Origin: an uncultured Gammaproteobacteria bacterium
Lineage (GTDB): Bacteria > Patescibacteriota > Microgenomatia > UBA12405
DNA: 45,642 nucleotides
Reading direction: 5' to 3'
Assembly: GCA_964544275.1 (NCBI GenBank)
Contig: CAZIZX010000001.1
Location: 1-45,642 of the forward strand
Made by a program: the position numbers and the translations under genes. This document shows, in pieces, positions 4,989 through 27,476 of the stretch (position 1 is its first letter; the number at the start of each line of letters is the position of its first letter). The notes under the pieces are model-generated. The model was not told where the DNA came from. It saw only the letters and a program-made list of their open reading frames with translations, and made no database searches.

Positions 4989-5074
4989 CTTCTTACCATA
5001 TTATTACCGCATTCTTCTCAGAGTTTCATTGCCAGTTACTAAATTTACCTTATATTAATTATTAACCAGACTAA

Positions 5075-5212
5075 ATGGCCCAAGTTATCATCTTAACCCA
5101 CAATTCGCGAGCCCAAAAAGATGTCAATTACTATCACCGGCAAGGATTGAAAATCAAAAAGTTAGCCGCCAAAAACTTTTCTAAAACATTCCAAAAAACA
5201 AGCTGCACTTAA
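5075..5212 (+). CDS. possible 45-aa basic small protein (MAQVIILTHNSRAQKDVNYYHRQGLKIKKLAAKNFSKTFQKTSCT)
   Basis: ATG-TAA ORF read by hand; fills the gap and ends inside the palindrome shared with the convergent gene; no family recognised. Confidence 0.25.
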   Translation: MAQVIILTHNSRAQKDVNYYHRQGLKIKKLAAKNFSKTFQKTSCT

Positions 5213-5223
5213 GTGCAGCTTGT
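5198..5223. terminator. perfect 26-bp palindrome, probable bidirectional terminator between convergent ORFs
   Basis: acaagctgcacttaagtgcagcttgt is its own reverse complement; preceded by an A-run on + (U-tract on - strand). Confidence 0.5.
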
Positions 5224-5250
5224 GATTCATGGTGTAGGTACTGCTAACAC

Positions 5251-5496
5251 TCACTTGATTGCTCTACCTACGGCTATAAGTATCACGGCTCCCAGTGTGG
5301 CAACTAATATACTAGTAATATTAAATCCGGTAACTCCTCCAAATCCCAGCAAATTCATCACCAAACCTCCCACTACCGCACCCACAATACCCAGCACTAT
5401 GTCCAATATCGGACCCTGTTGTGCATTCGTCTTCATGATTACCGAAGCCAACCATCCGGCTATTAGGCCCAGTAAAATCCAAAGTAATAGGTTCAT
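5251..5496 (-). CDS. GlsB/YeaQ/YmgE family (transglycosylase-associated) stress membrane protein
   Basis: WILLGLIAGWLAS...DIVLGIVGAVVGG...SILVATLGAVIL signature; strong SD AGGAGGTGA upstream. Confidence 0.92.
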   Translation of the reverse strand: MNLLLWILLGLIAGWLASVIMKTNAQQGPILDIVLGIVGAVVGGLVMNLLGFGGVTGFNITSILVATLGAVILIAVGRAIK

Positions 5497-5640
5497 CTTT
5501 GTTGCTCACCTCCTTTAGTCTTGAAACTTTATTAACCAAATGTTAATTGCCAAGCATAAGATGGCAATCAAAAAAGAGTAAGAGCTGTGTAATAAAGCCT
5601 AAATTTCCTTCTTTTTTACAATTCTGTTAGAATAGAACAT

Positions 5641-11620: not shown

Positions 11621-13414
11621 TTACTCTTCTTCAACCAGTTCAATATCTTTTTTAGTCAACAATCCGCCTTCGTCTGCTTCCAATTTACCTTTAGCTTGAA
11701 GATTCCACAATAGTCTATACAGTCCGCCCTTTTGTCTTATCAATTGTGAGTGAGTTCCGACCTCAGCCACACTGCCGCCATCCATCACCACAATCTTGTC
11801 AGCTTTCCTGATAGTCGAAAATCTATGAGCAATAATTATCATGGTTCTGTCCTTGGCTGTTTTCCACAATGCCTCTTGAACAGATTTCTCCGATTCCGAA
11901 TCTAAATTTGACGTTGCCTCATCAAACACGATTACCTTCGGGTTGACGATCAAAGCTCTGGCAATTGCCAATCTTTGTTTTTGCCCGCCTGATAACTTAA
12001 TACCCCGTTCTCCCACCTGAGTTTCATAGGTGTCAGGCAATTGAGCGATAAATTCGTGTAAATTTGCCATTTCAGCCGCTCCTTCGATTTCTTTTTGGGT
12101 CACATCTTTCTTGCCGTAACCGATATTAAAACCGATAGTGTTGTTAAACAACACTGGTTCCTGTGGCACCACGGCAATAAAAGAACGCAAGTGGCTTTTT
12201 GATAACTCCCGAATGTCAGTTCCATCCAAAAGAATCTGTCCACCCTTTAAATCGTAAAAACGTAGTAGTAGTTTAACAATGGTTGTTTTTCCAGCCCCAG
12301 ATTTACCCACAAAAGCCACCGATTGCCCCGGTTTAATTTCCAAGTCCACCCCATTCAACACTCGAGCCTCATTATCCGGATAGCTGAAGCTGACATTTCT
12401 AAATTCAATCTTACCTTCAATTTTTTTAAATTTCCTCGGTCTGATCGGGTCTTTAACAATTATTTCATTATCCAAAAGTTCAAAATATTTCTCTAAATCG
12501 ATAAAATTTTTGGCAATTCCCCTGAAACGATACATCAATTCAAAGAATCGATAATAAAACCCGGTAATAAAACCTGTCACCATCACAAAATCGCCAGCTG
12601 TAATTTCCTGGTTTGACAACTGTCTTATTGTCACCCACAAAATCGCCAACATTCCCAGTCCTGACAATGTTCCAATTGTCACATCCATCACCCTAAAGCT
12701 ATTACTGAATCCCCAGATTTTTCTGGTCCATTCCACAAAATTTGCTTTCAGTCTTTTTTCCTCTTCTCTTTCTTGAGCAAAAAATTTCACCGTTTCGTAG
12801 TTGATCAAATTATCAGTAATTACCCCGGATATCATGTCTTCTGCGTCATTAAACTCCTTTCTCCACTTCATGTTAAGTTTAATTAAAATCAAACTCACAC
12901 TAATGTTTATTGCAAACAAGCCCAACATGATCCACACGATCGTCCAGTTAACTCCTGAAAAAAATGACAGAACCACTATCAGACTGACAATTGCACTCAA
13001 AATATTCTCATGAATTCTTTCGTACAAATCAAAAAAAGCCTGATCACCCCGCTTGAAAGCGCTGATTAATGATCCGGTATTTTTGTTGACATGGAAAGCA
13101 AAATCAAGATCTTGTATATACCTAAAAATCTTCACCCGAACATCACGTGCTGCCGGAATTATCACCCTGTCTCCCAAGTATGCCGACAGTGACCGAAGCC
13201 AATTTGTCAAAATTCTGGATCCAACAAATACAAAAAGGATTTTTATCAGCAATTCATATTCCCGTCCCTGCGTGATATTATCGACTAGTAACTTGAAAAA
13301 ATATGGATTCAAGTTTTCCAGGACAGTCGACAACACCAAGGCTGTCAAAAAAAGTATAAAACTCTTTTTGTATACCAACAAAAACTGATAAAACCTTCTT
13401 AATATTTTGCCCAT
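11621..13414 (-). CDS. ABC half-transporter, ATM1/HMT-like exporter (TMD+NBD)
   Basis: LINYETVKFF (Atm1-like), GKSGAGKTT, LSGGQKQR, VFDEATSNLD, IAHR. Confidence 0.9.
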   Translation of the reverse strand: MGKILRRFYQFLLVYKKSFILFLTALVLSTVLENLNPYFFKLLVDNITQGREYELLIKILFVFVGSRILTNWLRSLSAYLGDRVIIPAARDVRVKIFRYIQDLDFAFHVNKNTGSLISAFKRGDQAFFDLYERIHENILSAIVSLIVVLSFFSGVNWTIVWIMLGLFAINISVSLILIKLNMKWRKEFNDAEDMISGVITDNLINYETVKFFAQEREEEKRLKANFVEWTRKIWGFSNSFRVMDVTIGTLSGLGMLAILWVTIRQLSNQEITAGDFVMVTGFITGFYYRFFELMYRFRGIAKNFIDLEKYFELLDNEIIVKDPIRPRKFKKIEGKIEFRNVSFSYPDNEARVLNGVDLEIKPGQSVAFVGKSGAGKTTIVKLLLRFYDLKGGQILLDGTDIRELSKSHLRSFIAVVPQEPVLFNNTIGFNIGYGKKDVTQKEIEGAAEMANLHEFIAQLPDTYETQVGERGIKLSGGQKQRLAIARALIVNPKVIVFDEATSNLDSESEKSVQEALWKTAKDRTMIIIAHRFSTIRKADKIVVMDGGSVAEVGTHSQLIRQKGGLYRLLWNLQAKGKLEADEGGLLTKKDIELVEEE

Positions 13415-13496: not shown

Positions 13497-13841
13497 ATGA
13501 ACAATAGGGGAGTATTTGATTTAATCAGAAATATCGTCCGCCAAATCCCACCAGGAAAGGTGTCTACGTATGGCAATGTCGCTCAGGCAGCCGGAATTGG
13601 AAATGCCCAGGTTGTTGGCTGGGCCCTGCGAGGCAACCAGAATAAAGACATCCCTTGTCACCGGGTTATTCAAAAAGGCGGCACCCTATCTTCCGGCTTT
13701 TCACTTAATGGTCCCAAGGAACAAAAAAAGCGTTTACTTAATGATGGCGTACCGTTTTTAGACGAGACCAGAGTTGACATGGATCAGGCTTTTTTCGACT
13801 TAGCCACTTTGCCCCAATTTTCTCCTGGCTCTGTTAATTAA
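13497..13841 (+). CDS. O6-methylguanine-DNA methyltransferase family protein (single domain, PCHRV)
   Basis: IPPGKVSTYGNVA, AQVVGWAL, IPCHRVI. Confidence 0.92.
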   Translation: MNNRGVFDLIRNIVRQIPPGKVSTYGNVAQAAGIGNAQVVGWALRGNQNKDIPCHRVIQKGGTLSSGFSLNGPKEQKKRLLNDGVPFLDETRVDMDQAFFDLATLPQFSPGSVN

Positions 13842-16307
13842 AAATAGTAAAGCTAGTAATCCGGGAAGTAGGTATAAATAATTTCTATCTCTTATATTCA
13901 TTGCCGGACTTGTATCTCCAAGAACCCCTTCCAAGTTTTCTTCATTTATTGCCGCCGACACTACTCCCGGCCCTAACAAATTGCCCGCCAAGCCTCTAAA
14001 TAACACCACAAACTCCGTGATTGCATTATCACTGCTCATTTCGTCTCCCTCATCTGTTTTGCCAATAACCCGGCTTTTGGAAAAATAATTAGTCGATTTT
14101 TGAATAGACACCCCCATTTCTATCCCGAAACTGACCGTCCCACTCTTCCTGGCTTTAATTTTTCCGATTCGTACCTCATCTGCTACCCACAAATTACCTT
14201 TCTCGTCAAATATTTCGTGTACTAAAACCGCCTCCGACAAATCACCGTCGCCAACATTTTCGATTACTATTTCAAATGTTACGGTATCATTGGGGAACAC
14301 ATAGCCATTAACATTGTTTTTGGCTGTTATCTTAATTTCCGGTTTATTATGATTCTTTTCACCATCCTCACTCCCACTATCCCCACCGACATTACCCGAA
14401 TTGTCAAAAAGCTTATAAATAATTATTTTTGTCTGAGTCGAGCTGCTATTGTTGAGTAAATTCGATTCAATCTGATTTGTATTGACACTGGCTCTCATTA
14501 TTGATTCAATTTCTTCGTAATCCTCTGCCGCCCAGGCCGTTTTGACCAATTTCCAGCCCGAAACCGTAGCCGTCGGCTTATTTTTTAATGCTCTCAATTT
14601 TATCTGGAACGATCCTCCTTTTCTGGCTCCGATATGGCCAATGTTCCACCTAACTTTATTTCCATCAATTCCACTTCCAATTCCACTATTGTCACCCAGG
14701 TATTCCACGCTGTCATCCAAGTTTACTTCTACCGTAGCATCAAACACATCTTCATAACCCTCATTCTTTACCACCAAAGTATAAAAAAACTCTTCGCCCA
14801 CCTCAACACTATCTTTTTCTTGCAAGACATCAATACTTAAATCTGGATAGGCAAAAATGGCATTGCCGTTCCAATTACCGACAATATTTATAATTCCATA
14901 AAACCAATTACTGCCCCAAAAATTTGTATTGACAATGTTTAATAAATTAACCAAAGCTATCGCATTTCCGGTAATAATCCCAGCCGAACCTGAGTTGTTA
15001 TTTATGTTATTATTTCCACTATCGGCTTGAGCTACAATATTATTGTTTACTACCGCATTATTTTCCAGGTCAACCACAGCAAAGAAATTTGGCCCGCTTC
15101 CGCCTACCCCTCCTCCGATTGAAAACGTGGTTACGCTACCACCTGTTTCCACCGATCCCGGTTCACTCCAATTATAAATATTGCCATTCCAGGCACCCAA
15201 AGTGTTGATGGTTAGCAAAAACAAATCACTCGAACCATTTATATTTATCCAATTATTGTTGTTTGATGATGAAACGGCGTCTCCACTTGTTAGATTAGAT
15301 TCTCCGCCTCCCAAAATATTGTTAAAACCGCTATTTGATTGAGCTTGGATCGAATTATTCACCAAAGCCCCATTCTCATTAAATACTAACCCGCCAACCT
15401 GTGAGTTATTTCCATTCTGAAACATAGTTGGTGAAGGCAAAATTATGTCTCCCAAAGTCGAACCGTCAACATTGATAACCGTTATCAAAAAATTACTGCC
15501 GATTAAGGTGGTGTTGACCAGGTTGATCACGTTGGCCAAGGCTATCGCGTTACCGCTGACAATCAATACGTCTCCGACGTTTTCATCAACTGAGTTATTT
15601 CCGCTGTTTGCAATTACCGTAGCATTGTTATTGACCTCAGCTTCATTTTTTTGACTAATCACAATAAAATTCGAATACTCTGTTGGGTTATATGCTACTT
15701 CAACTCCACTTGAATCCCCGCTTAACACTTCACCCCAAATATCTTTCAAATTAATATCAGCCACGTCTCCGCTGAAATTATTGAGTAAAAATATTTTTAA
15801 ATTACTATTGACTAGATTGGAATTTATCAAATTGACCAAATTAGCATAAGATACAGCCTCACCGGTATCAATTACTGCTTTACTGCCACTATCGGCCTGA
15901 TCAATTTGATTGTTTCCAGTTACTGACTCCGAATAACTATCATTATTTATGGTAGCTTCGTTTGTCGGTTCCTCTTCGCTCTCAGTTTCTTCACCACCTT
16001 TTTCTTGTAATTGTTCCACAGTTCCTAACTTTTCCAACGTATTGTCTTCAACCGCAACTCCTTCTAAAACGTTCTCCTCAGCAGGTTCTTTATCGATAAT
16101 TTCGTCTTCGGTTATAACTAGTTCTTCTTGTTCCAATTCTTCAAGTTCAGGCTCAACTTCAGAAGATATTTCTTCGTCTACTACGGCTGTCTCCATCGGT
16201 TCCGCTTCAGCCTCTTGGGCATACACCAAAGCCACCATCGGTTGATTAATCAACAGGCTGATTAATGTAATTCCAATAATAATATTTTTGCTAACTGTGT
16301 TTTTCAT
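13800..16307 (-). CDS. large secreted Asn/Gly-repeat surface protein with two DUF11-like Ig domains and a C-terminal TM anchor
   Basis: Signal peptide (..VYAQE); acidic linker; four N.A.(V/I).N...(A/S).(S/T)G.N...I.(T/S)G.A....N..N repeats; YPDLSI..VEVGEEFFYTLVVKNEG (DUF11-like); VLGD + TM + RARRK. Confidence 0.75.
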   Translation of the reverse strand: MKNTVSKNIIIGITLISLLINQPMVALVYAQEAEAEPMETAVVDEEISSEVEPELEELEQEELVITEDEIIDKEPAEENVLEGVAVEDNTLEKLGTVEQLQEKGGEETESEEEPTNEATINNDSYSESVTGNNQIDQADSGSKAVIDTGEAVSYANLVNLINSNLVNSNLKIFLLNNFSGDVADINLKDIWGEVLSGDSSGVEVAYNPTEYSNFIVISQKNEAEVNNNATVIANSGNNSVDENVGDVLIVSGNAIALANVINLVNTTLIGSNFLITVINVDGSTLGDIILPSPTMFQNGNNSQVGGLVFNENGALVNNSIQAQSNSGFNNILGGGESNLTSGDAVSSSNNNNWININGSSDLFLLTINTLGAWNGNIYNWSEPGSVETGGSVTTFSIGGGVGGSGPNFFAVVDLENNAVVNNNIVAQADSGNNNINNNSGSAGIITGNAIALVNLLNIVNTNFWGSNWFYGIINIVGNWNGNAIFAYPDLSIDVLQEKDSVEVGEEFFYTLVVKNEGYEDVFDATVEVNLDDSVEYLGDNSGIGSGIDGNKVRWNIGHIGARKGGSFQIKLRALKNKPTATVSGWKLVKTAWAAEDYEEIESIMRASVNTNQIESNLLNNSSSTQTKIIIYKLFDNSGNVGGDSGSEDGEKNHNKPEIKITAKNNVNGYVFPNDTVTFEIVIENVGDGDLSEAVLVHEIFDEKGNLWVADEVRIGKIKARKSGTVSFGIEMGVSIQKSTNYFSKSRVIGKTDEGDEMSSDNAITEFVVLFRGLAGNLLGPGVVSAAINEENLEGVLGDTSPAMNIRDRNYLYLLPGLLALLFLINRARRKLGQSG

Positions 16308-16321
16308 TTTCTTTGCGGCCC

Positions 16322-16341
16322 GCCCGTTTTGACGAACGGGC
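16322..16341. promoter_or_regulatory. GC-rich intergenic stem-loop between the two repeat-protein genes
   Basis: gcccgtt-ttgacg-aacgggc; no U-tract on the coding (-) strand. Confidence 0.5.
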
Positions 16342-16365
16342 CATTTGGTTTATTCGAATATTCTT

Positions 16366-16956
16366 TTAATCAAATAAACCTCCGAAACCGTTAACTCTCA
16401 GGTTAGTCATCACCCGTAGAGTACTTTTGGCTTCAGCATCTCCAGTCGAGATTTCTCTGTCTCCCCAAACTGAAGCATTGGCTTTCGACAAAAGAGAGCC
16501 CTTAACTTCAGCCTCTTCCTTTTGTTTATTGTCGCCCGTGTTGGCCGCTCCCAGCACCATATTATCAACATACGCTTGATTCTTTGTCTTGGATGAATTG
16601 TTGGAAAGACCGCAAGAACGGTTATTCTTTGCTTCAGGACAACTACAATCCTCAGCGTTGGCTATCACTGTTATATAAGAGGTAGCGGTTGCATTACCAG
16701 TTTCTATGGTTTTGTCTTCACCTCCAGCATTAGCCTCGGAACTAATGGACTTTTCCACCTTGGCTTGGCTAATCTGGGAATTAGACCCGGTATTAGCCAC
16801 AAGTTCCACCGTATTAATAACAGTGGCTTGGTTGTAAGTAGAAGTAGAAGCAGAATTAGAAGGTCGCCTATTCGACGAACGACTAGACGCCAACGCTGGA
16901 CCAACAGCATTTAATAACATGGCCACCGCAAAAACCGCAACTAATAATTTCTTCAT
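16366..16956 (-). CDS. small secreted two-repeat Asn/Gly protein with Cys-containing linker (196 aa from ATG 16956)
   Basis: SD GAGGAGGTGA upstream of ATG 16956; signal peptide ending PALA; two NQA.V.N.V...ANTG.N.Q...I.TG.A.A.S......N repeats separated by DCSCPEAKNNRSC. Confidence 0.8.
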   Translation of the reverse strand: MKKLLVAVFAVAMLLNAVGPALASSRSSNRRPSNSASTSTYNQATVINTVELVANTGSNSQISQAKVEKSISSEANAGGEDKTIETGNATATSYITVIANAEDCSCPEAKNNRSCGLSNNSSKTKNQAYVDNMVLGAANTGDNKQKEEAEVKGSLLSKANASVWGDREISTGDAEAKSTLRVMTNLRVNGFGGLFD

Positions 16957-17076
16957 AAAAATTCTCACCTCCTCAAGTAAATATTAATTAATAACCAAAA
17001 TGATGGGAGTTTGATTCACTGTTAAGTATTCAATAAAATCATTATCAAACCAAGATGTAACAAAAAATTCAAAAAT

Positions 17077-19510: not shown

Positions 19511-20725
19511 ATGTTTACACTCAAAAACCTTTTTTTCCTCCCCGCCATAATTTTTCTATCCTCTTTTCTTCTATCAGCTCACCCGCAGGCTCAATCAGGT
19601 AATTCCGGTCAATGTCAAAATGGGGAAGTCAAAAAAATTGAAAACCCTCCCTTTAACGCTCACACCTCCTGCCTTATTACCAGACTTGGAATAAAAGCCG
19701 GAAGTCAGGCTAGTGGTCATGGTTGTACTTACTATTCGTCAAATACTAATGACGGCTGTTACAAAGTTGAAGGTATCGGCACCAATCAGGCCTCCGCCAG
19801 TCGTGTTGGACACGGTAAATTTTGCCCAGAAATTTCTCATATTAAAGTTTATTGTGACCCGATCAACACTCCCACCCCAACCGTCACCCCAACACCCACC
19901 ACTAAACCTGCCAAACCTCCCACCCCCACTAAAAAACCTCATCCAACTAAAATTCCCAAACCCACTCACACCCCTAAACCCACCAAACCCCCCTGCGCCA
20001 CACCAACTCAGATCTCCACTCCAACCAGTACTCCCACTTCGGTTCCGACTCCCACCTCCACTCAGATACCAACAGTAACCCCCACCCCAACCAATCCACC
20101 AGCTCCTACTTCTACCCCCACCCCCCAGCCTCACTCTGATCCCACCGCCACTCCTACACCTCTACCCACATCTAGCCCCGCACCGGTTGGTGGCTACAAC
20201 CCCACCGTTGTTCAAGTTTTGGGTTCTACCGACAACTACAATCCTTTAATCGACGCCATCAAGAAATCACTTATTGGCCAGGTTTTAGGTGAAAATAATT
20301 TAGCTGGCACCAGTGATCCAAAAGCTTCAAACGAAAAATTACCTTCTTCCAATCTTCTGACCCCAAAAACGATAACAATTCCTCAGATTAATTTTTCTCA
20401 ACCCATATATCAATCAGATCGAATTGGCGACGAATTACTCGTTGGCCACAATGAAGTTTTAGAAGCGGATTTAAATGGACTAAAACTTATTTATGGTCAC
20501 AATAGCCCTCAAGTTTTTGCCAACCTCTATCAGCTAAATTTAGGCCAAAGTATAACCATAGATACAGGAGATCTGACCAGCGAATACCAGATTGTCTCCA
20601 AACACTTTGTTCATGAGTCCAAAAGTAACTTTTTCGAATCTGTTAGTTCCGACAATATCGTTTTGATGACCTGTTCTTATACTCAACCTGATTACCGACA
20701 CATAATAATTGCCAGCAAAATCTAA
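19511..20725 (+). CDS. sortase-domain protein with signal peptide, Cys-rich N-domain and Pro/Thr stalk
   Basis: C-terminal IYGHN..VFANLYQLNLGQSI...YQIV...IVLMTC....YRHII: His/Cys/Arg sortase triad in canonical order. Confidence 0.8.
   Translation: MFTLKNLFFLPAIIFLSSFLLSAHPQAQSGNSGQCQNGEVKKIENPPFNAHTSCLITRLGIKAGSQASGHGCTYYSSNTNDGCYKVEGIGTNQASASRVGHGKFCPEISHIKVYCDPINTPTPTVTPTPTTKPAKPPTPTKKPHPTKIPKPTHTPKPTKPPCATPTQISTPTSTPTSVPTPTSTQIPTVTPTPTNPPAPTSTPTPQPHSDPTATPTPLPTSSPAPVGGYNPTVVQVLGSTDNYNPLIDAIKKSLIGQVLGENNLAGTSDPKASNEKLPSSNLLTPKTITIPQINFSQPIYQSDRIGDELLVGHNEVLEADLNGLKLIYGHNSPQVFANLYQLNLGQSITIDTGDLTSEYQIVSKHFVHESKSNFFESVSSDNIVLMTCSYTQPDYRHIIIASKI
19860..20200 (+). repeat. Pro/Thr-rich low-complexity linker (TPTPT-type repeats)
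   Basis: Translated PINTPTPTVTPTPTTKPAKPPTPTKKP...TPTPLPTSSP; boundaries approximate. Confidence 0.85.
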
Positions 20726-23537: not shown

Positions 23538-23625
23538 GACCCAGAAAAACAACACCAAAAATATCATAGCACATCTTCAAACTGTAGTCTTTTATTGCCC
23601 CAAACCCTTTGCTATCGTAGTAGAA

Positions 23626-23880
23626 ATGATTGAAAACAAATTCCTGATTCCGGTTACTCCCCAAGAACTTGAAGCCTGGACAAAATTCGAAGCAGCTTTA
23701 TCCGACCCGATTGCTCATGAGTCCCGTTACCGGGGTGTAGTTGGTGAAGCCAATTATATTCCCAATCCCAGGCTCAGGCTCGATTACCAAAACCAGAATG
23801 TTGTACAATTAATCAATGCGCCTCCAACTCTACGACCGCGGCAGCCCGCAAGGCAAAAAGTTGCTCAACCAGTTGGATGA
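23626..23880 (+). CDS. hypothetical protein
   Basis: Fills the gap after folD; overlaps the next ORF by 65 nt; no family recognised. Confidence 0.4.
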   Translation: MIENKFLIPVTPQELEAWTKFEAALSDPIAHESRYRGVVGEANYIPNPRLRLDYQNQNVVQLINAPPTLRPRQPARQKVAQPVG

Positions 23881-24055
23881 ATTATGCCAGCGCCTCCAGC
23901 TTGATTGTGCCCCCGAACCGGTTACCGACATGAGTCGCGTTTACTCTATGGGTGTTCAGGGCAAAACCATCTTGGTAATTAATAGCGAGGTGGTTTTGGT
24001 CGACCGCTTCCCCAGTCTAAAAGAACTTGAAGATATTTTAAACGACTATCGCTAA
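23816..24055 (+). CDS. small thioredoxin-fold protein (Thioredoxin_3/MTH895-like) lacking CxxC
   Basis: Aligns by eye to M.I.V.G.GCP.C..L......VTD...I...GV..TP.LVI..EV....R.PS..E..E.L, with GSPQG at the CxxC site. Confidence 0.6.
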   Translation: MRLQLYDRGSPQGKKLLNQLDELCQRLQLDCAPEPVTDMSRVYSMGVQGKTILVINSEVVLVDRFPSLKELEDILNDYR

Positions 24056-27030: not shown

Positions 27031-27100
27031 TTTTAGAAAATGTCAATTAATAAAGCAATACTCTATTTTGCCATGAATCATCCACAAAAGGAGACCATGG

Positions 27101-27406
27101 CTATGACATTTTCTTGGCCGTTGGTTTTTTAGTCTTGGGTTTTACTGTTTTGGCAGCTTTAGTACTAGTCACCTTTTTTACCTTTTGAGCGTACCCGGAC
27201 TTTAACCGGGATACTTTATTCCGATGGTAAATGTTTTCTTTTTGCATCTTATCCAGACTGGAATATACCTTTTTTAAACCATCAACGCTGGGTTTGGCCA
27301 GGAACTCTTTAACTACTTTTCTTAATTTGCTTTTGGCGTATACATTATCCTTGCGGTTTTTCAAGGACTTTCTTAATGACTTTTTTGCAGATAAACTAAT
27401 TGGCAT
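27101..27406 (-). CDS. rpsT: 30S ribosomal protein S20 with Lys/Ala/Thr/Pro-rich C-terminal tail
   Basis: MPISLSAKKSLRKS, VYSSLDK, IYHRNKVSRLKS. Confidence 0.9.
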   Translation of the reverse strand: MPISLSAKKSLRKSLKNRKDNVYAKSKLRKVVKEFLAKPSVDGLKKVYSSLDKMQKENIYHRNKVSRLKSGYAQKVKKVTSTKAAKTVKPKTKKPTAKKMS

Positions 27407-27476
27407 GGCTCCTATTCTATCTCAACCTTTGGCTATTTACAAGAATTTATATAATAGAGCATAATTCACTTAACTC

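What the first reader, a model, noticed from the sequence alone, without database searches (positions are those of the whole stretch)
13800..16956. Two-gene curli/Fap-like cassette: small secreted repeat subunit plus membrane-anchored repeat nucleator
Seen: a 196-aa signal-peptide protein consists almost only of two ~60-aa repeats (NQATVINTVELVANTGSNSQ...IETGNATATSYITVIAN and NQAYVDNMVLGAANTGDNKQ...ISTGDAEAKSTLRVMTN) joined by a CSC...C linker. The co-oriented 835-aa protein has four copies of the same N.A.V.N...A.(T/S)G.N...I.(T/S)G.A repeat, then two DUF11-like Ig domains and a TM + basic tail. Established: curli (CsgA/CsgB) and Fap (FapC/FapB) pair a small soluble Asn/Gly/Gln beta-repeat subunit with a cell-associated nucleator. 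Inference: this is a CPR surface fibre or sheath, in which the small protein polymerises (possibly disulfide-crosslinked) on the anchored large one. I know of no description of such a system in CPR. This is the best candidate for an undescribed system in the window.
Basis: partly seen in the sequence, partly recalled or inferred. Interest (0 to 1): 0.78.

Follow-up and report, generated by a model that had tools for sequence, protein, structure and literature searches.

The report
Anchored and secreted repeat-protein pair
Two neighbouring genes of an ultrasmall (Patescibacteria/CPR) bacterium encode a stalked, cell-anchored surface protein and a small secreted protein built from a shorter form of the same uncatalogued beta-repeat; the pair is conserved across the group and probably forms a tethered surface fibre or coat, though no assembly has been shown.

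Summary
Both ORFs are on the minus strand: small 16366-16956 (196 aa), large 13800-16307 (835 aa). A repeat HMM built only from large-protein relatives finds two repeats in the small protein (44.6 bits; best of 500 shuffles 6.8). Profile-profile comparison gives 95% probability.

The pair is conserved. In 25 of 26 informative loci a short-repeat secreted gene lies directly upstream of the large gene, in differing neighbourhoods. The small family has 967 clusters (E<=1e-3).

New findings:
- Covariation shows each repeat is two long antiparallel arms meeting on an Asn/Ala/Val face.
- Small-protein repeats lack the third strand and Trp-rich end.
- Most large proteins carry exactly four full repeats, about half with one or two short repeats fused in front.
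- A strong hairpin follows the small gene in 21 of 23 loci.
- A sortase is linked, and a (Q/E)VLG motif occurs before the large protein's membrane segment and twice in the sortase.

Neither protein is a curli or Fap member. There is no Pfam, NCBIfam or PDB match to the repeat. The nearest logic is chaplins: long anchored plus short secreted forms. Polymerisation is inferred, and the small-protein model failed. Interest is moderate to high: a new variant of a known kind.

The parts
16366..16956 (-). Small gene: 196-aa secreted protein made of two short-type repeats. Signal peptide aa 1-24, ending ...GPALA|SS.
   Evidence: ORF; RBS and ATG; family of 967 clusters (50% identity, E<=1e-3), nearly all 150-260 aa and matched end to end; no Pfam, NCBIfam or PDB match.
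16968..16974 (-). GAGGAGG ribosome-binding site, 11 nt upstream of the ATG of the small gene.
   Evidence: Read directly from the sequence.
16654..16833 (-). Small protein, short-type repeat 1 (aa 42-101).
   Evidence: HMM domain. Covariation shows two ~20-residue antiparallel arms in contact.
16582..16653 (-). Cys-containing linker between the two repeats (aa 102-125; C104, C106, C115).
   Evidence: In the family the linker holds 2 Cys in 86 of 146 proteins, 4 or 6 in 21, and none in 25; typical forms are CxC or CxxC.
16387..16581 (-). Small protein, short-type repeat 2 (aa 126-190).
   Evidence: HMM domain; hhalign alignment.
16317..16342 (-). Intercistronic GC-rich stem-loop (11 bp, dG -20.9 kcal/mol, z -4.9) in the 58-nt spacer between the small and large genes. 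No U-tract follows it.
   Evidence: A hairpin in the same position with a different stem sequence occurs in 13 of 14 close loci and 8 of 9 distant loci. Only 4 of 17 spacers in the window fold this strongly.
13800..16307 (-). Large gene: 835-aa surface protein. Order: signal peptide, acidic disordered tail, four full repeats, two Ig-like domains, membrane anchor.
   Evidence: 99 relatives, mostly Patescibacteria, all named hypothetical or DUF11; AlphaFold2 pLDDT 80.9 and pTM 0.66.
15972..16217 (-). Acidic, predicted-disordered N-terminal region (aa 31-112; 33 Asp/Glu against 3 Lys/Arg).
   Evidence: pLDDT below 50 over aa 26-85; composition.
15747..15965 (-). Large protein, full-type repeat 1 (aa 115-187).
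   Evidence: pLDDT about 82-95.
15438..15647 (-). Large protein, full-type repeat 2 (aa 221-290).
15171..15377 (-). Large protein, full-type repeat 3 (aa 311-379).
14853..15065 (-). Large protein, full-type repeat 4 (aa 415-485).
14436..14843 (-). DUF11/CLIPPER Ig-like stalk domain (aa 489-624).
   Evidence: PF01345, E 4e-8. Found in 40 of 44 relatives. DUF11 was renamed CLIPPER and described as a stalk domain of fibrillar adhesins in PMC12617251.
13998..14345 (-). Second Ig-like beta-sandwich (aa ~655-770), CLIPPER_2/DUF7507-like.
   Evidence: AlphaFold2 strands with pLDDT above 90. The DUF7507 match is weak here (E 0.37) but significant in 13 of 44 relatives.
13917..13931 (-). EGVLG motif (aa 793-797), about 12 residues before the membrane segment. 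Candidate sorting or processing motif.
   Evidence: (Q/E/G)(V/I)LG is conserved at this place in most of the closer relatives. The same motif occurs twice in the linked sortases.
13803..13880 (-). C-terminal hydrophobic segment plus basic tail (aa 810-835, ...LLPGLLALLFLINRARRKLGQSG).
   Evidence: AlphaFold2 helix 813-834; sequence.
19511..20725 (+). Linked sortase-domain protein (404 aa). Order: N-terminal anchor, Pro/Thr-rich spacer, two QVLG motifs (aa 235-238 and 257-260; nt 20213-20224 and 20279-20290), catalytic domain aa 288-402. Possibly the enzyme that processes the large protein.
   Evidence: PF04203, E 3.9e-12; sequence. Syntenic in L002-L005 and L013, and a sortase sits beside the module in L021, L023 and L024.

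Best explanation
The two genes form a conserved two-component cell-surface module of Patescibacteria.

The large protein is exported and held at the cell by its C-terminus. The anchor is a membrane segment with a basic tail, possibly a sortase-type sorting signal with a (Q/E)VLG motif. Two Ig-like CLIPPER/DUF11 domains act as a stalk. At the far end the protein displays a rigid head of exactly four full beta-repeats.

The small protein is exported by a normal signal peptide. It is probably made in excess, because a conserved hairpin follows its gene. It consists only of the two-arm part of the same repeat and lacks the hydrophobic third strand and Trp-rich end that give the large repeats their core.

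Inference: the small protein cannot bury its Ala/Asn/Val faces on its own. It therefore packs against copies of itself and against the homologous head of the large protein. The result would be a fibre or coat tethered to the cell, with the large protein as base or template and the small protein as bulk subunit. The linker cysteines would staple or cross-link the small subunits.

Shown here: repeat homology, gene linkage, architecture, the hairpin, and the paired-arm contacts.

Inferred: excess expression of the small protein, binding of small to large, polymerisation, and sortase processing.
For: Shared repeat family: HMM 44.6 bits against 6.8 or less for shuffles; hhalign probability 95.3%.

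Gene linkage: a short-repeat secreted gene lies directly upstream of the large gene, on the same strand, in 14 of 14 genome loci, in 7 of 8 distant loci and in L023, L024 and L025. The flanking genes differ between lineages.

Paired arms: covariation in two independent alignments (effective sequence numbers 349 and 336) puts all top couplings on one antidiagonal, up to z 9.6. Each repeat is therefore a pair of arms of at least 20 residues touching through the conserved N/A/V face. The full-type repeat adds strand C and a Trp-rich end.

No core in the small protein: the mature protein is hydrophilic (GRAVY -0.65) with 6 aromatic residues in 172.

Fusion evidence: of 123 large proteins, 47 are FFFF, 38 are sFFFF and 21 are ssFFFF (F = full repeat, s = short-type repeat). 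Short-type repeats are thus naturally fused next to the four-repeat head.

Variable copy number: secreted partners carry 2, 3, 4 or 6 short repeats.

Hairpin: present after the small gene in 21 of 23 loci with varied stem sequences, and uncommon in other spacers of the window.

Head, stalk and anchor of the large protein: AlphaFold2 pLDDT above 90 across the head and pTM 0.66; DUF11 match.

Sortase: linkage and the shared QVLG motif.

Precedent: long anchored and short secreted chaplins co-assemble (PMC5618241).
Against: No assembly of any kind has been observed or modelled. The only model of the small protein is unusable (pLDDT 41.9 with 17 sequences). I could run no multimer prediction.

The four repeats of the large protein each carry position-specific conserved motifs, and their number is fixed at four. 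That fits a closed, finished head as well as it fits an open template.

Whether the paired arms are hydrogen-bonded hairpins (rod-like monomers) or beta-arches (stackable) cannot be decided from my covariation data.

The hairpin could be an ordinary terminator or stabiliser with no effect on the ratio of the two products.

Cysteine counts in the linker are mostly even, which favours internal disulfides over cross-links.

The VLG motif lies 10-25 residues from the membrane segment and is not a known sortase motif. In L021 a neighbouring protein carries a canonical LPNTSG instead.
Confidence: 0.45

Rival explanations
1. Fixed heteromeric tip. The small protein is a rod of two hairpins packed on their Ala faces and stapled by the Cys linker. 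It binds the four-repeat head of the large protein in a set ratio, as an adaptor, cap or specificity subunit of a fibrillar adhesin. No polymer forms.
For: The head is predicted as a finished rigid body with exactly four full repeats and position-specific motifs. Short repeats fused in cis number only one or two. Linker cysteines are mostly even in number, consistent with an internal staple. The CLIPPER stalk plus anchor is the standard fibrillar-adhesin layout. Some lineages add a third small gene with one weak repeat, which looks like another accessory subunit.
Against: A conserved hairpin after the small gene suggests unequal expression. The secreted partner varies from 2 to 6 repeats, which is odd for a fixed docking subunit. 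The small protein has almost no hydrophobic core residues.
Confidence: 0.25
2. Separate functions. The large protein is a stand-alone anchored adhesin. The small protein is a paralogue that acts on its own, for example as a free coat or S-layer-like protein, a soluble competitor, or a host-binding factor. Adjacency would reflect common descent and co-regulation only.
For: No direct evidence of contact between the two. The large head is predicted to fold without a partner.
Against: The pair is kept adjacent, in the same order and on the same strand, in 25 of 26 loci despite 25-55% identity and changed neighbourhoods. Short-type repeats are fused to the head in about half of the large proteins.
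Confidence: 0.15
3. The pair is a true curli (CsgA/CsgB) or Fap (FapC/FapB) homologue.
For: Similar logic: a small soluble repeat protein plus a cell-associated one, both Asn-rich. One of 100 family members gave a weak Curlin_rpt match (E 0.0027).
Against: No Curlin_rpt or other Pfam match in either window protein. One weak match among 100 searches is what chance predicts. The repeat is 60-95 aa rather than about 20 aa. None of the ten neighbouring ORFs scanned resembles a curli or Fap secretion gene.
Confidence: 0.02
4. The small Cys-containing protein is a secreted bacteriocin-like toxin, exported or serviced by the nearby ABC transporter (11621-13414).
For: Weak NCBIfam matches to a 'BLB8/JUQZ-1 family' model (E 0.006 here; 3 of 100 members). 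An ABC exporter follows the large gene in several syntenic loci.
Against: The matches lie far below the model cut-off (16.8 against 40 bits) and cover the signal peptide. The small protein has a normal Sec signal peptide, not a double-glycine leader. The ABC gene is absent from the non-syntenic loci. This reading does not explain the shared repeats.
Confidence: 0.03

Closest known systems
Streptomyces chaplins (long ChpA-C and short ChpD-H)
   Same: Organisation in a single-membrane cell: long forms with several copies of a domain plus a C-terminal sorting signal are wall-anchored, and short secreted forms consist only of that domain. Co-assembly is proposed to tether the fibrillar layer. Conserved cysteines occur in the short forms (PMC5618241).
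   Different: No sequence relationship: no PF03777 or any other Pfam match. The repeats here are 60-95 aa with long paired arms, against a ~55-aa chaplin domain. The small protein is hydrophilic rather than hydrophobic. The large protein adds Ig-like stalk domains. The two genes are always adjacent. Amyloid formation is untested.
Curli CsgA/CsgB and Pseudomonas Fap FapC/FapB
   Same: A soluble repeat subunit paired with a cell-associated paralogue sharing the repeat. Asn-rich, low-hydrophobicity subunit. A CxxC motif is known in Fap.
   Different: Not homologous. No outer-membrane secretion genes among the ten neighbouring ORFs scanned. The repeat unit is three to four times longer. The anchored partner is a large stalked protein with a folded four-repeat head.
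Fibrillar adhesins with CLIPPER (DUF11) stalks
   Same: The large protein has the standard layout: signal peptide, distal non-stalk domain, CLIPPER/CLIPPER_2 Ig-like stalk, C-terminal anchor.
   Different: The distal domain is an uncatalogued four-repeat head. A dedicated secreted paralogue of that head is encoded immediately upstream, which the CLIPPER survey (PMC12617251) does not describe for these adhesins. The lysine expected for the isopeptide bond is not conserved in the family consensus of domain 1.
Bacillus TasA/TapA/SipW
   Same: A secreted fibre subunit plus a cell-associated accessory protein in a Gram-positive-type envelope. One distant locus (L015) carries a SipW-like S24/S26 peptidase and proteins with a shared N-terminal motif 1.5-4 kb upstream.
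   Different: No Peptidase_M73/TasA match. No such peptidase among the ten ORFs flanking the pair in the window. TasA and TapA do not share a repeat.

Membership tests
Curli (CsgA/CsgB) | Curlin repeat (Pfam PF07012) in both subunits | tested here: not met
   No match in either window protein at E<=1. One of 100 small-family members matched at E 0.0027, which is chance level.
Curli (CsgA/CsgB) | Dedicated secretion and assembly genes (csgG, csgE, csgF) nearby | tested here: not met
   The ten ORFs flanking the pair are OFOR subunits, sortase, SOD, an MGMT-like protein, an ABC exporter, a nuclease, an M24 peptidase, FolD and one ORF with no match.
Curli / Fap / chaplin (functional amyloid) | Cross-beta fibrils (ThT or Congo red binding, SDS resistance, fibre diffraction) | not testable with these tools
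   Needs purified protein. The single-chain AlphaFold2 model of the small protein was unusable (pLDDT 41.9).
Fap (FapC/FapB) | Sequence membership of the Fap repeat family | tested here: not met
   No Pfam or NCBIfam family matched the repeats at meaningful scores.
Chaplins | Chaplin domain (PF03777/DUF320) | tested here: not met
   No Pfam match in the small protein, the large protein, or 100 and 44 relatives.
Chaplins | Long multi-domain anchored form plus short secreted form sharing the domain | tested here: met
   The large protein has four full repeats plus an anchor; the small protein has two short repeats and no anchor. This is a likeness of organisation only.
Sortase substrates | C-terminal LPXTG-type motif, hydrophobic segment and basic tail, with a sortase encoded in the genome | tested here: inconclusive
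   The hydrophobic segment, basic tail and linked sortase are present. The motif is (Q/E)VLG rather than LPXTG and lies 10-25 aa upstream. The same motif sits twice in the sortases. No cleavage data.
Fibrillar adhesins with CLIPPER stalk | Signal peptide, CLIPPER/DUF11 stalk domain(s) and an anchoring region | tested here: met
   PF01345 at E 4e-8, above the gathering score. The second Ig-like domain, signal peptide and C-terminal anchor are seen in the model. Family description from PMC12617251.
Fibrillar adhesins with CLIPPER stalk | Intramolecular Lys-Asp-Asn isopeptide bond in the stalk domain | tested here: inconclusive
   No conserved Lys appears in the first strand of domain 1 in the family consensus.
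Sortase-assembled Gram-positive pili | The polymerising subunit carries its own C-terminal sorting signal | tested here: not met
   The small protein ends ...NLRVNGFGGLFD with no hydrophobic segment. The same holds across the family alignment.
TasA/camelysin | Peptidase_M73 domain and an adjacent SipW-type signal peptidase | tested here: not met
   No Pfam match and no such peptidase among the ten flanking ORFs in the window. A SipW-like gene lies near the module only in L015.

The most novel reading that the evidence does not exclude
Patescibacteria widely encode a previously unrecognised surface polymer. A four-repeat head on a stalked, sortase-processed protein would template open-ended stacking of a small, abundant subunit made only of long paired beta-arms with an alanine/asparagine interface. 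This would be a new structural class of tethered cross-beta or silk-like fibre or coat. (Q/E)VLG would be a new sortase recognition motif, mirrored as a pseudo-substrate in the enzyme itself. Such a structure could be the contact surface between these episymbionts and their hosts.
Probability: 0.25. Interest if true: 0.85.

Novelty: new variant of a known kind. Interest (0 to 1): 0.62.

Why it matters
Patescibacteria (CPR) make up a large share of bacterial diversity, and all cultivated members live attached to other microbes. Beyond type IV pili, little is known about their surface structures.

This module is widespread: the small family has 967 clusters at 50% identity with E<=1e-3. Every source that names a member calls it 'hypothetical' or 'DUF11 domain-containing'. 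The repeat has no entry in Pfam or NCBIfam and no solved relative.

If the two proteins do build a tethered fibre or coat, several things follow. It would give a defined, testable component of the CPR cell surface. It would add a new repeat fold for self-assembly. It might also reveal a new sortase sorting motif.

If the small protein only caps an adhesin, the result is more modest. The pair would still define a new adhesin head domain with a dedicated partner.

Tried and rejected
Sequence-similarity searches.
- Pairwise BLAST between the small and large proteins and against themselves was too weak to show the repeats. I replaced it with HMM and profile tests.
- The word-index homology search with the small protein alone found one relative. 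That understated the family, which the exhaustive profile search put at 967 clusters.

PDB and fold searches.
- PDB sequence and profile searches with the small protein, the large protein, the small family and the repeat profile found nothing meaningful.
- Foldseek of the large-protein model against PDB and BFVD returned only tandem Ig-like matches: integrin legs, RbmA, transglutaminase and a DUF11 protein. It says nothing about the repeat head.
- Model coordinates are not exposed, so the head could not be searched alone.

Structure prediction.
- AlphaFold2 of the small protein with 17 sequences failed (pLDDT 41.9). Both prediction jobs were then spent, so the deeper alignment A7 could not be used.

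- The metagenome scan gave five short contigs, only one of them informative.

Leads that were dropped.
- L018's downstream gene first looked like a sortase by tblastn but is an FN3 protein.
- L021's upstream two-repeat ORF and its LPNTSG protein look similar by eye but score no better than shuffles. They are not counted as homologues.
- A first covariation run used the wrong columns and was discarded.
- A first hairpin control timed out.
- The bacteriocin reading and curli/Fap membership were considered and rejected (see rival explanations).
- Literature searches found no description of this module.

Full report
**1. The observation**

A GAGGAGG site 11 nt upstream supports the ATG start of the small gene.

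A simple motif scan finds the N-x-[AG]-x-[VIL]-x-N start of the repeat twice in the small protein (aa 42 and 126) and four times in the large one (aa 116, 221, 312 and 416). Pairwise BLAST is weak, so I tested the repeat independently:
- A repeat HMM was grown only from the 99 relatives of the large protein (454 repeat instances).
- Its consensus is NNEAEVENNVSVSANTGNNQISENGGDASITTGDATALANVLNLVNTNIVGSNWFLLIINILGNWSGDIIL.
- It scores the small protein 44.6 bits in two domains (aa 42-101 and 126-190). The best of 500 shuffles of the mature small protein scores 6.8 bits.
- Profile-profile comparison of the small family with the large-type repeat gives 95.3% probability and E 2e-8.

The linker cysteines are C104, C106 and C115. 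The DUF11 domain lies at aa 489-624 (E 4e-8). A second Ig-like domain and a C-terminal helix followed by a basic tail appear in the model.

Two corrections apply:
- The small-protein repeat is a truncated version of the large-protein repeat. It matches columns 1-49 of about 71, carries a ~15-residue insertion, and lacks the last hydrophobic part.
- The large protein has no cysteine.

**2. Relatives and gene linkage**

The large protein has 99 relatives in the word-index search (100% down to about 25% identity). Those with a source name are Candidatus Shapirobacteria, Moranbacteria, 'Patescibacteria group', one 'Marinimicrobia' and one 'uncultured bacterium' record. All are called hypothetical, DUF11 or fibronectin type III proteins.

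The small protein seemed nearly an orphan at first, with one relative. An exhaustive profile search then found 967 clusters at E<=1e-3 and 384 at E<=1e-10. The best 150 are almost all 150-260 aa and matched end to end. Those that carry a name are 'hypothetical protein' from Shapirobacteria or Patescibacteria.

Evidence for linkage:
- In 14 genome loci that encode a relative of the large protein (33-53% identity), a 155-202-aa signal-peptide ORF with two short repeats lies directly upstream on the same strand. This holds in all 14.
- The surrounding genes fall into different synteny groups, so linkage is not just preserved gene order.
- In seven more distant loci the upstream partner is again a short-repeat protein. 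Some have two or three repeats followed by a second ~150-190-aa gene with one weak repeat (L015, L016, L019, L022). Others have four to six repeats in a 394-519-aa protein (L017, L018, L020).
- Only L021 lacks a detectable homologue. A compositionally similar two-repeat ORF sits in the same place but scores no better than shuffles.
- Starting from small-family members, the gene just downstream is a large-type protein in L015, L023, L024 and L025.

In all, 25 of 26 informative loci carry the pair.

**3. Anatomy of the repeat**

AlphaFold2 with 99 sequences models the large protein well: mean pLDDT 80.9 and pTM 0.66. The head (aa 113-488) is mostly above 90. It is all-beta, with strands of 15-21, 11 and 10 residues per repeat. 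The links between repeats have lower confidence. Two beta-sandwiches and a terminal helix follow.

I had no access to the coordinates. Foldseek matches reflect only the Ig pair.

I therefore computed mean-field direct couplings on the repeat alignments:
- For the full-type repeat (413 sequences, effective number 349), the top couplings are 4-45, 8-43, 12-37/39, 14-35/37, 17-33, 19-30 and 21-28. They lie on one antidiagonal.
- Further couplings (44-58, 41-61, 54-71) place a third strand and a Trp-rich end against the second arm.
- For the short-type repeat (347 sequences, effective number 336), the couplings 3-60, 5-58, 7-57, 9-55, 11-51/53, 13-49/51/53, 18-45, 20-42/44 and 23-40 give the same picture, with z up to 9.6.

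Each repeat is thus a pair of antiparallel arms of at least 20 residues. The arms meet on the conserved Asn/Ala/Val face. The TGxN and TGxA motifs face each other across the pair rather than forming turns.

My data cannot tell whether the arms are hydrogen-bonded to each other (a hairpin) or pack face to face (a beta-arch that needs neighbours to bond with).

The small protein keeps only the two arms. It is hydrophilic (GRAVY -0.65) with 6 aromatic residues in 172. The head has 28 aromatics and 19% Asn. AlphaFold2 could not fold the small protein with 17 sequences (pLDDT 41.9). That result is uninformative rather than evidence of disorder.

**4. Architecture across the family**

Of 123 large proteins, 47 have four full repeats (FFFF). 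Another 38 have one short-type repeat in front (sFFFF) and 21 have two (ssFFFF). Other patterns are rare.

Two conclusions follow:
- The head almost always has exactly four full repeats. Each position carries its own conserved end motif in the family consensus, for example GKIYNWxxPGS after repeat 3 and IFAYPDL after repeat 4.
- Short-type repeats occur naturally fused to the distal (N-terminal) side of the head. This is fusion-type evidence that short and full repeats sit next to each other in space.

**5. Expression signal**

The 58-nt spacer between the two genes holds an 11-bp GC-rich stem-loop on the sense strand (16317-16342; dG -20.9 kcal/mol, z -4.9). No U-tract follows it.

A hairpin of 11-19 bp lies at the same place in 13 of 14 close loci and 8 of 9 distant loci, with quite different stem sequences. 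Among 17 spacers in the window only 4 fold this strongly, and the other three are long spacers of 446-652 nt.

By analogy with the stem-loops that follow major-subunit genes in pilus operons (my own knowledge, not tested here), I read this as a device that makes the small product more abundant than the large one. That step is an inference.

**6. Anchoring**

The large protein ends in a hydrophobic segment and RARRK. About 12 residues upstream lies EGVLG. A (Q/E/G)(V/I)LG motif is conserved 10-25 residues before the membrane segment in most of the closer relatives, and one subgroup has EVRG instead.

A sortase-domain protein (19511-20725; PF04203, E 3.9e-12) lies 2.5 kb from the small gene. It is syntenic in L002-L005 and L013. 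Sortase genes also sit beside the module in the unrelated contexts of L021, L023 and L024.

The window's sortase has QVLG twice, 22 residues apart, just before its catalytic domain. Its orthologues in L002, L003, L005 and L013 keep a two-copy (V/I)LG arrangement at the same spacing, while those of L004 and L023 have one such motif before the domain. In window ORFs the background rate of [QE][VI]LG is 0.22 per 1000 residues.

I take (Q/E)VLG as a candidate sorting or pseudo-substrate motif, but this is unproven. In L021 a neighbouring protein carries a canonical LPNTSG signal.

**7. What it most likely is**

The C-terminal half of the large protein matches the layout of fibrillar adhesins, in which DUF11 (now called CLIPPER) domains form the stalk (PMC12617251). 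The distal part is an uncatalogued four-repeat head. A dedicated secreted protein made of the core-less form of the same repeat is always encoded just upstream.

My best explanation (about 0.45) is a tethered two-component surface structure. The anchored protein would be the base or template, and the small protein the more abundant subunit. The small protein would pack on the head and on itself through the Ala/Asn/Val faces.

The main rival (about 0.25) is a fixed tip complex without polymerisation. Separate functions (about 0.15), a bacteriocin role (0.03) and true curli/Fap homology (0.02) are less likely.

**8. Comparison with known systems**

Neither protein belongs to curli, Fap, chaplin or TasA families. 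No Pfam or NCBIfam model matches the repeats in the window proteins, in 44 large relatives or in 100 small relatives. No solved structure matches by sequence or profile.

In logic, the closest known system is the chaplins of Streptomyces. Long forms with two domains and a sortase signal are wall-anchored. Short secreted forms consist of one domain with two cysteines. Co-assembly is proposed to tether the layer (PMC5618241). Curli and Fap share only the idea of a subunit plus a cell-associated paralogue.

**9. Novelty and score**

I found no description of this module in the papers I could search. The repeat has no library entry. The kind of system is known, but the fold, the stalked four-repeat head, the strict adjacency and the possible new sorting motif are not. 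I class it as a new variant of a known kind.

Function is not shown, so interest is 0.62. The most novel reading still open is an open-ended templated polymer with a new sortase motif, at probability about 0.25.

Noticed in passing
window 20213-20224 and 20279-20290 (within 19511-20725, +): The sortase-domain protein has two QVLG motifs 22 residues apart, just before its catalytic domain. Its orthologues in L002, L003, L005 and L013 keep two (V/I)LG motifs at the same spacing; those of L004 and L023 have one. The motif matches the one before the membrane segment of the large protein. It may be a pseudo-substrate or self-processing site.
   Followed up: partly
window 16317-16342 (-): A strong GC-rich stem-loop lies between the small and large genes. 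It is conserved in position but not in sequence across 21 of 23 related loci.
   Followed up: yes
L015 2262-5341: In one distant Patescibacteria locus the module is preceded by a VWA protein, a SipW-like S24/S26 signal peptidase, and two proteins sharing an N-terminal FEAxxxNVTAHIxN motif. This recalls the TasA/SipW arrangement.
   Followed up: no
L015 6900-7481; L016 2279-2731; L019 4463-5017; L022 4497-4973: Some lineages have a third gene between the small and large genes. It encodes a ~150-190-aa signal-peptide protein with one weak repeat and an acidic C-terminal half; no well-supported Pfam or NCBIfam family (one borderline chance-looking match in L016).
   Followed up: partly
L021 2023-3268: A 213-aa protein with a canonical LPNTSG motif, membrane segment and basic tail sits next to a sortase and two genes upstream of the module. 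By eye it has one Asn/Gly/Thr-rich repeat (TGPDSNN...), but the similarity is not significant.
   Followed up: partly
window 13800-13841: The 3' end of the large gene overlaps by 42 nt, convergently, with a 114-aa ORF (13497-13841, +) that matches the DNA-binding domain of 6-O-methylguanine methyltransferase.
   Followed up: no
window 4989-5640, 23538-24051, 27031-27476: Three long intergenic stretches (446-652 nt) contain strong local hairpins (dG -19 to -24 kcal/mol). No tRNA or Rfam family is found anywhere in the window.
   Followed up: no
L001, L006-L009, L014 (record titles): Several MAG records titled 'uncultured Gammaproteobacteria' carry this Patescibacteria-type module. L001 is the closest relative of the window (53% and 63% identity). 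The taxon labels look unreliable.
   Followed up: no
L015 7478-10192: The public gene call for the large protein in this record covers only the last 423 aa. The open frame with four repeats runs to 904 aa.
   Followed up: partly
window 16885-16833 (small aa 25-41) and 15972-16217 (large aa 31-112): The mature N-terminus of the small protein is basic (SSRSSNRRPS..., pI 11.7). The distal tail of the large protein is strongly acidic (33 Asp/Glu against 3 Lys/Arg). Charge complementarity is possible.
   Followed up: no
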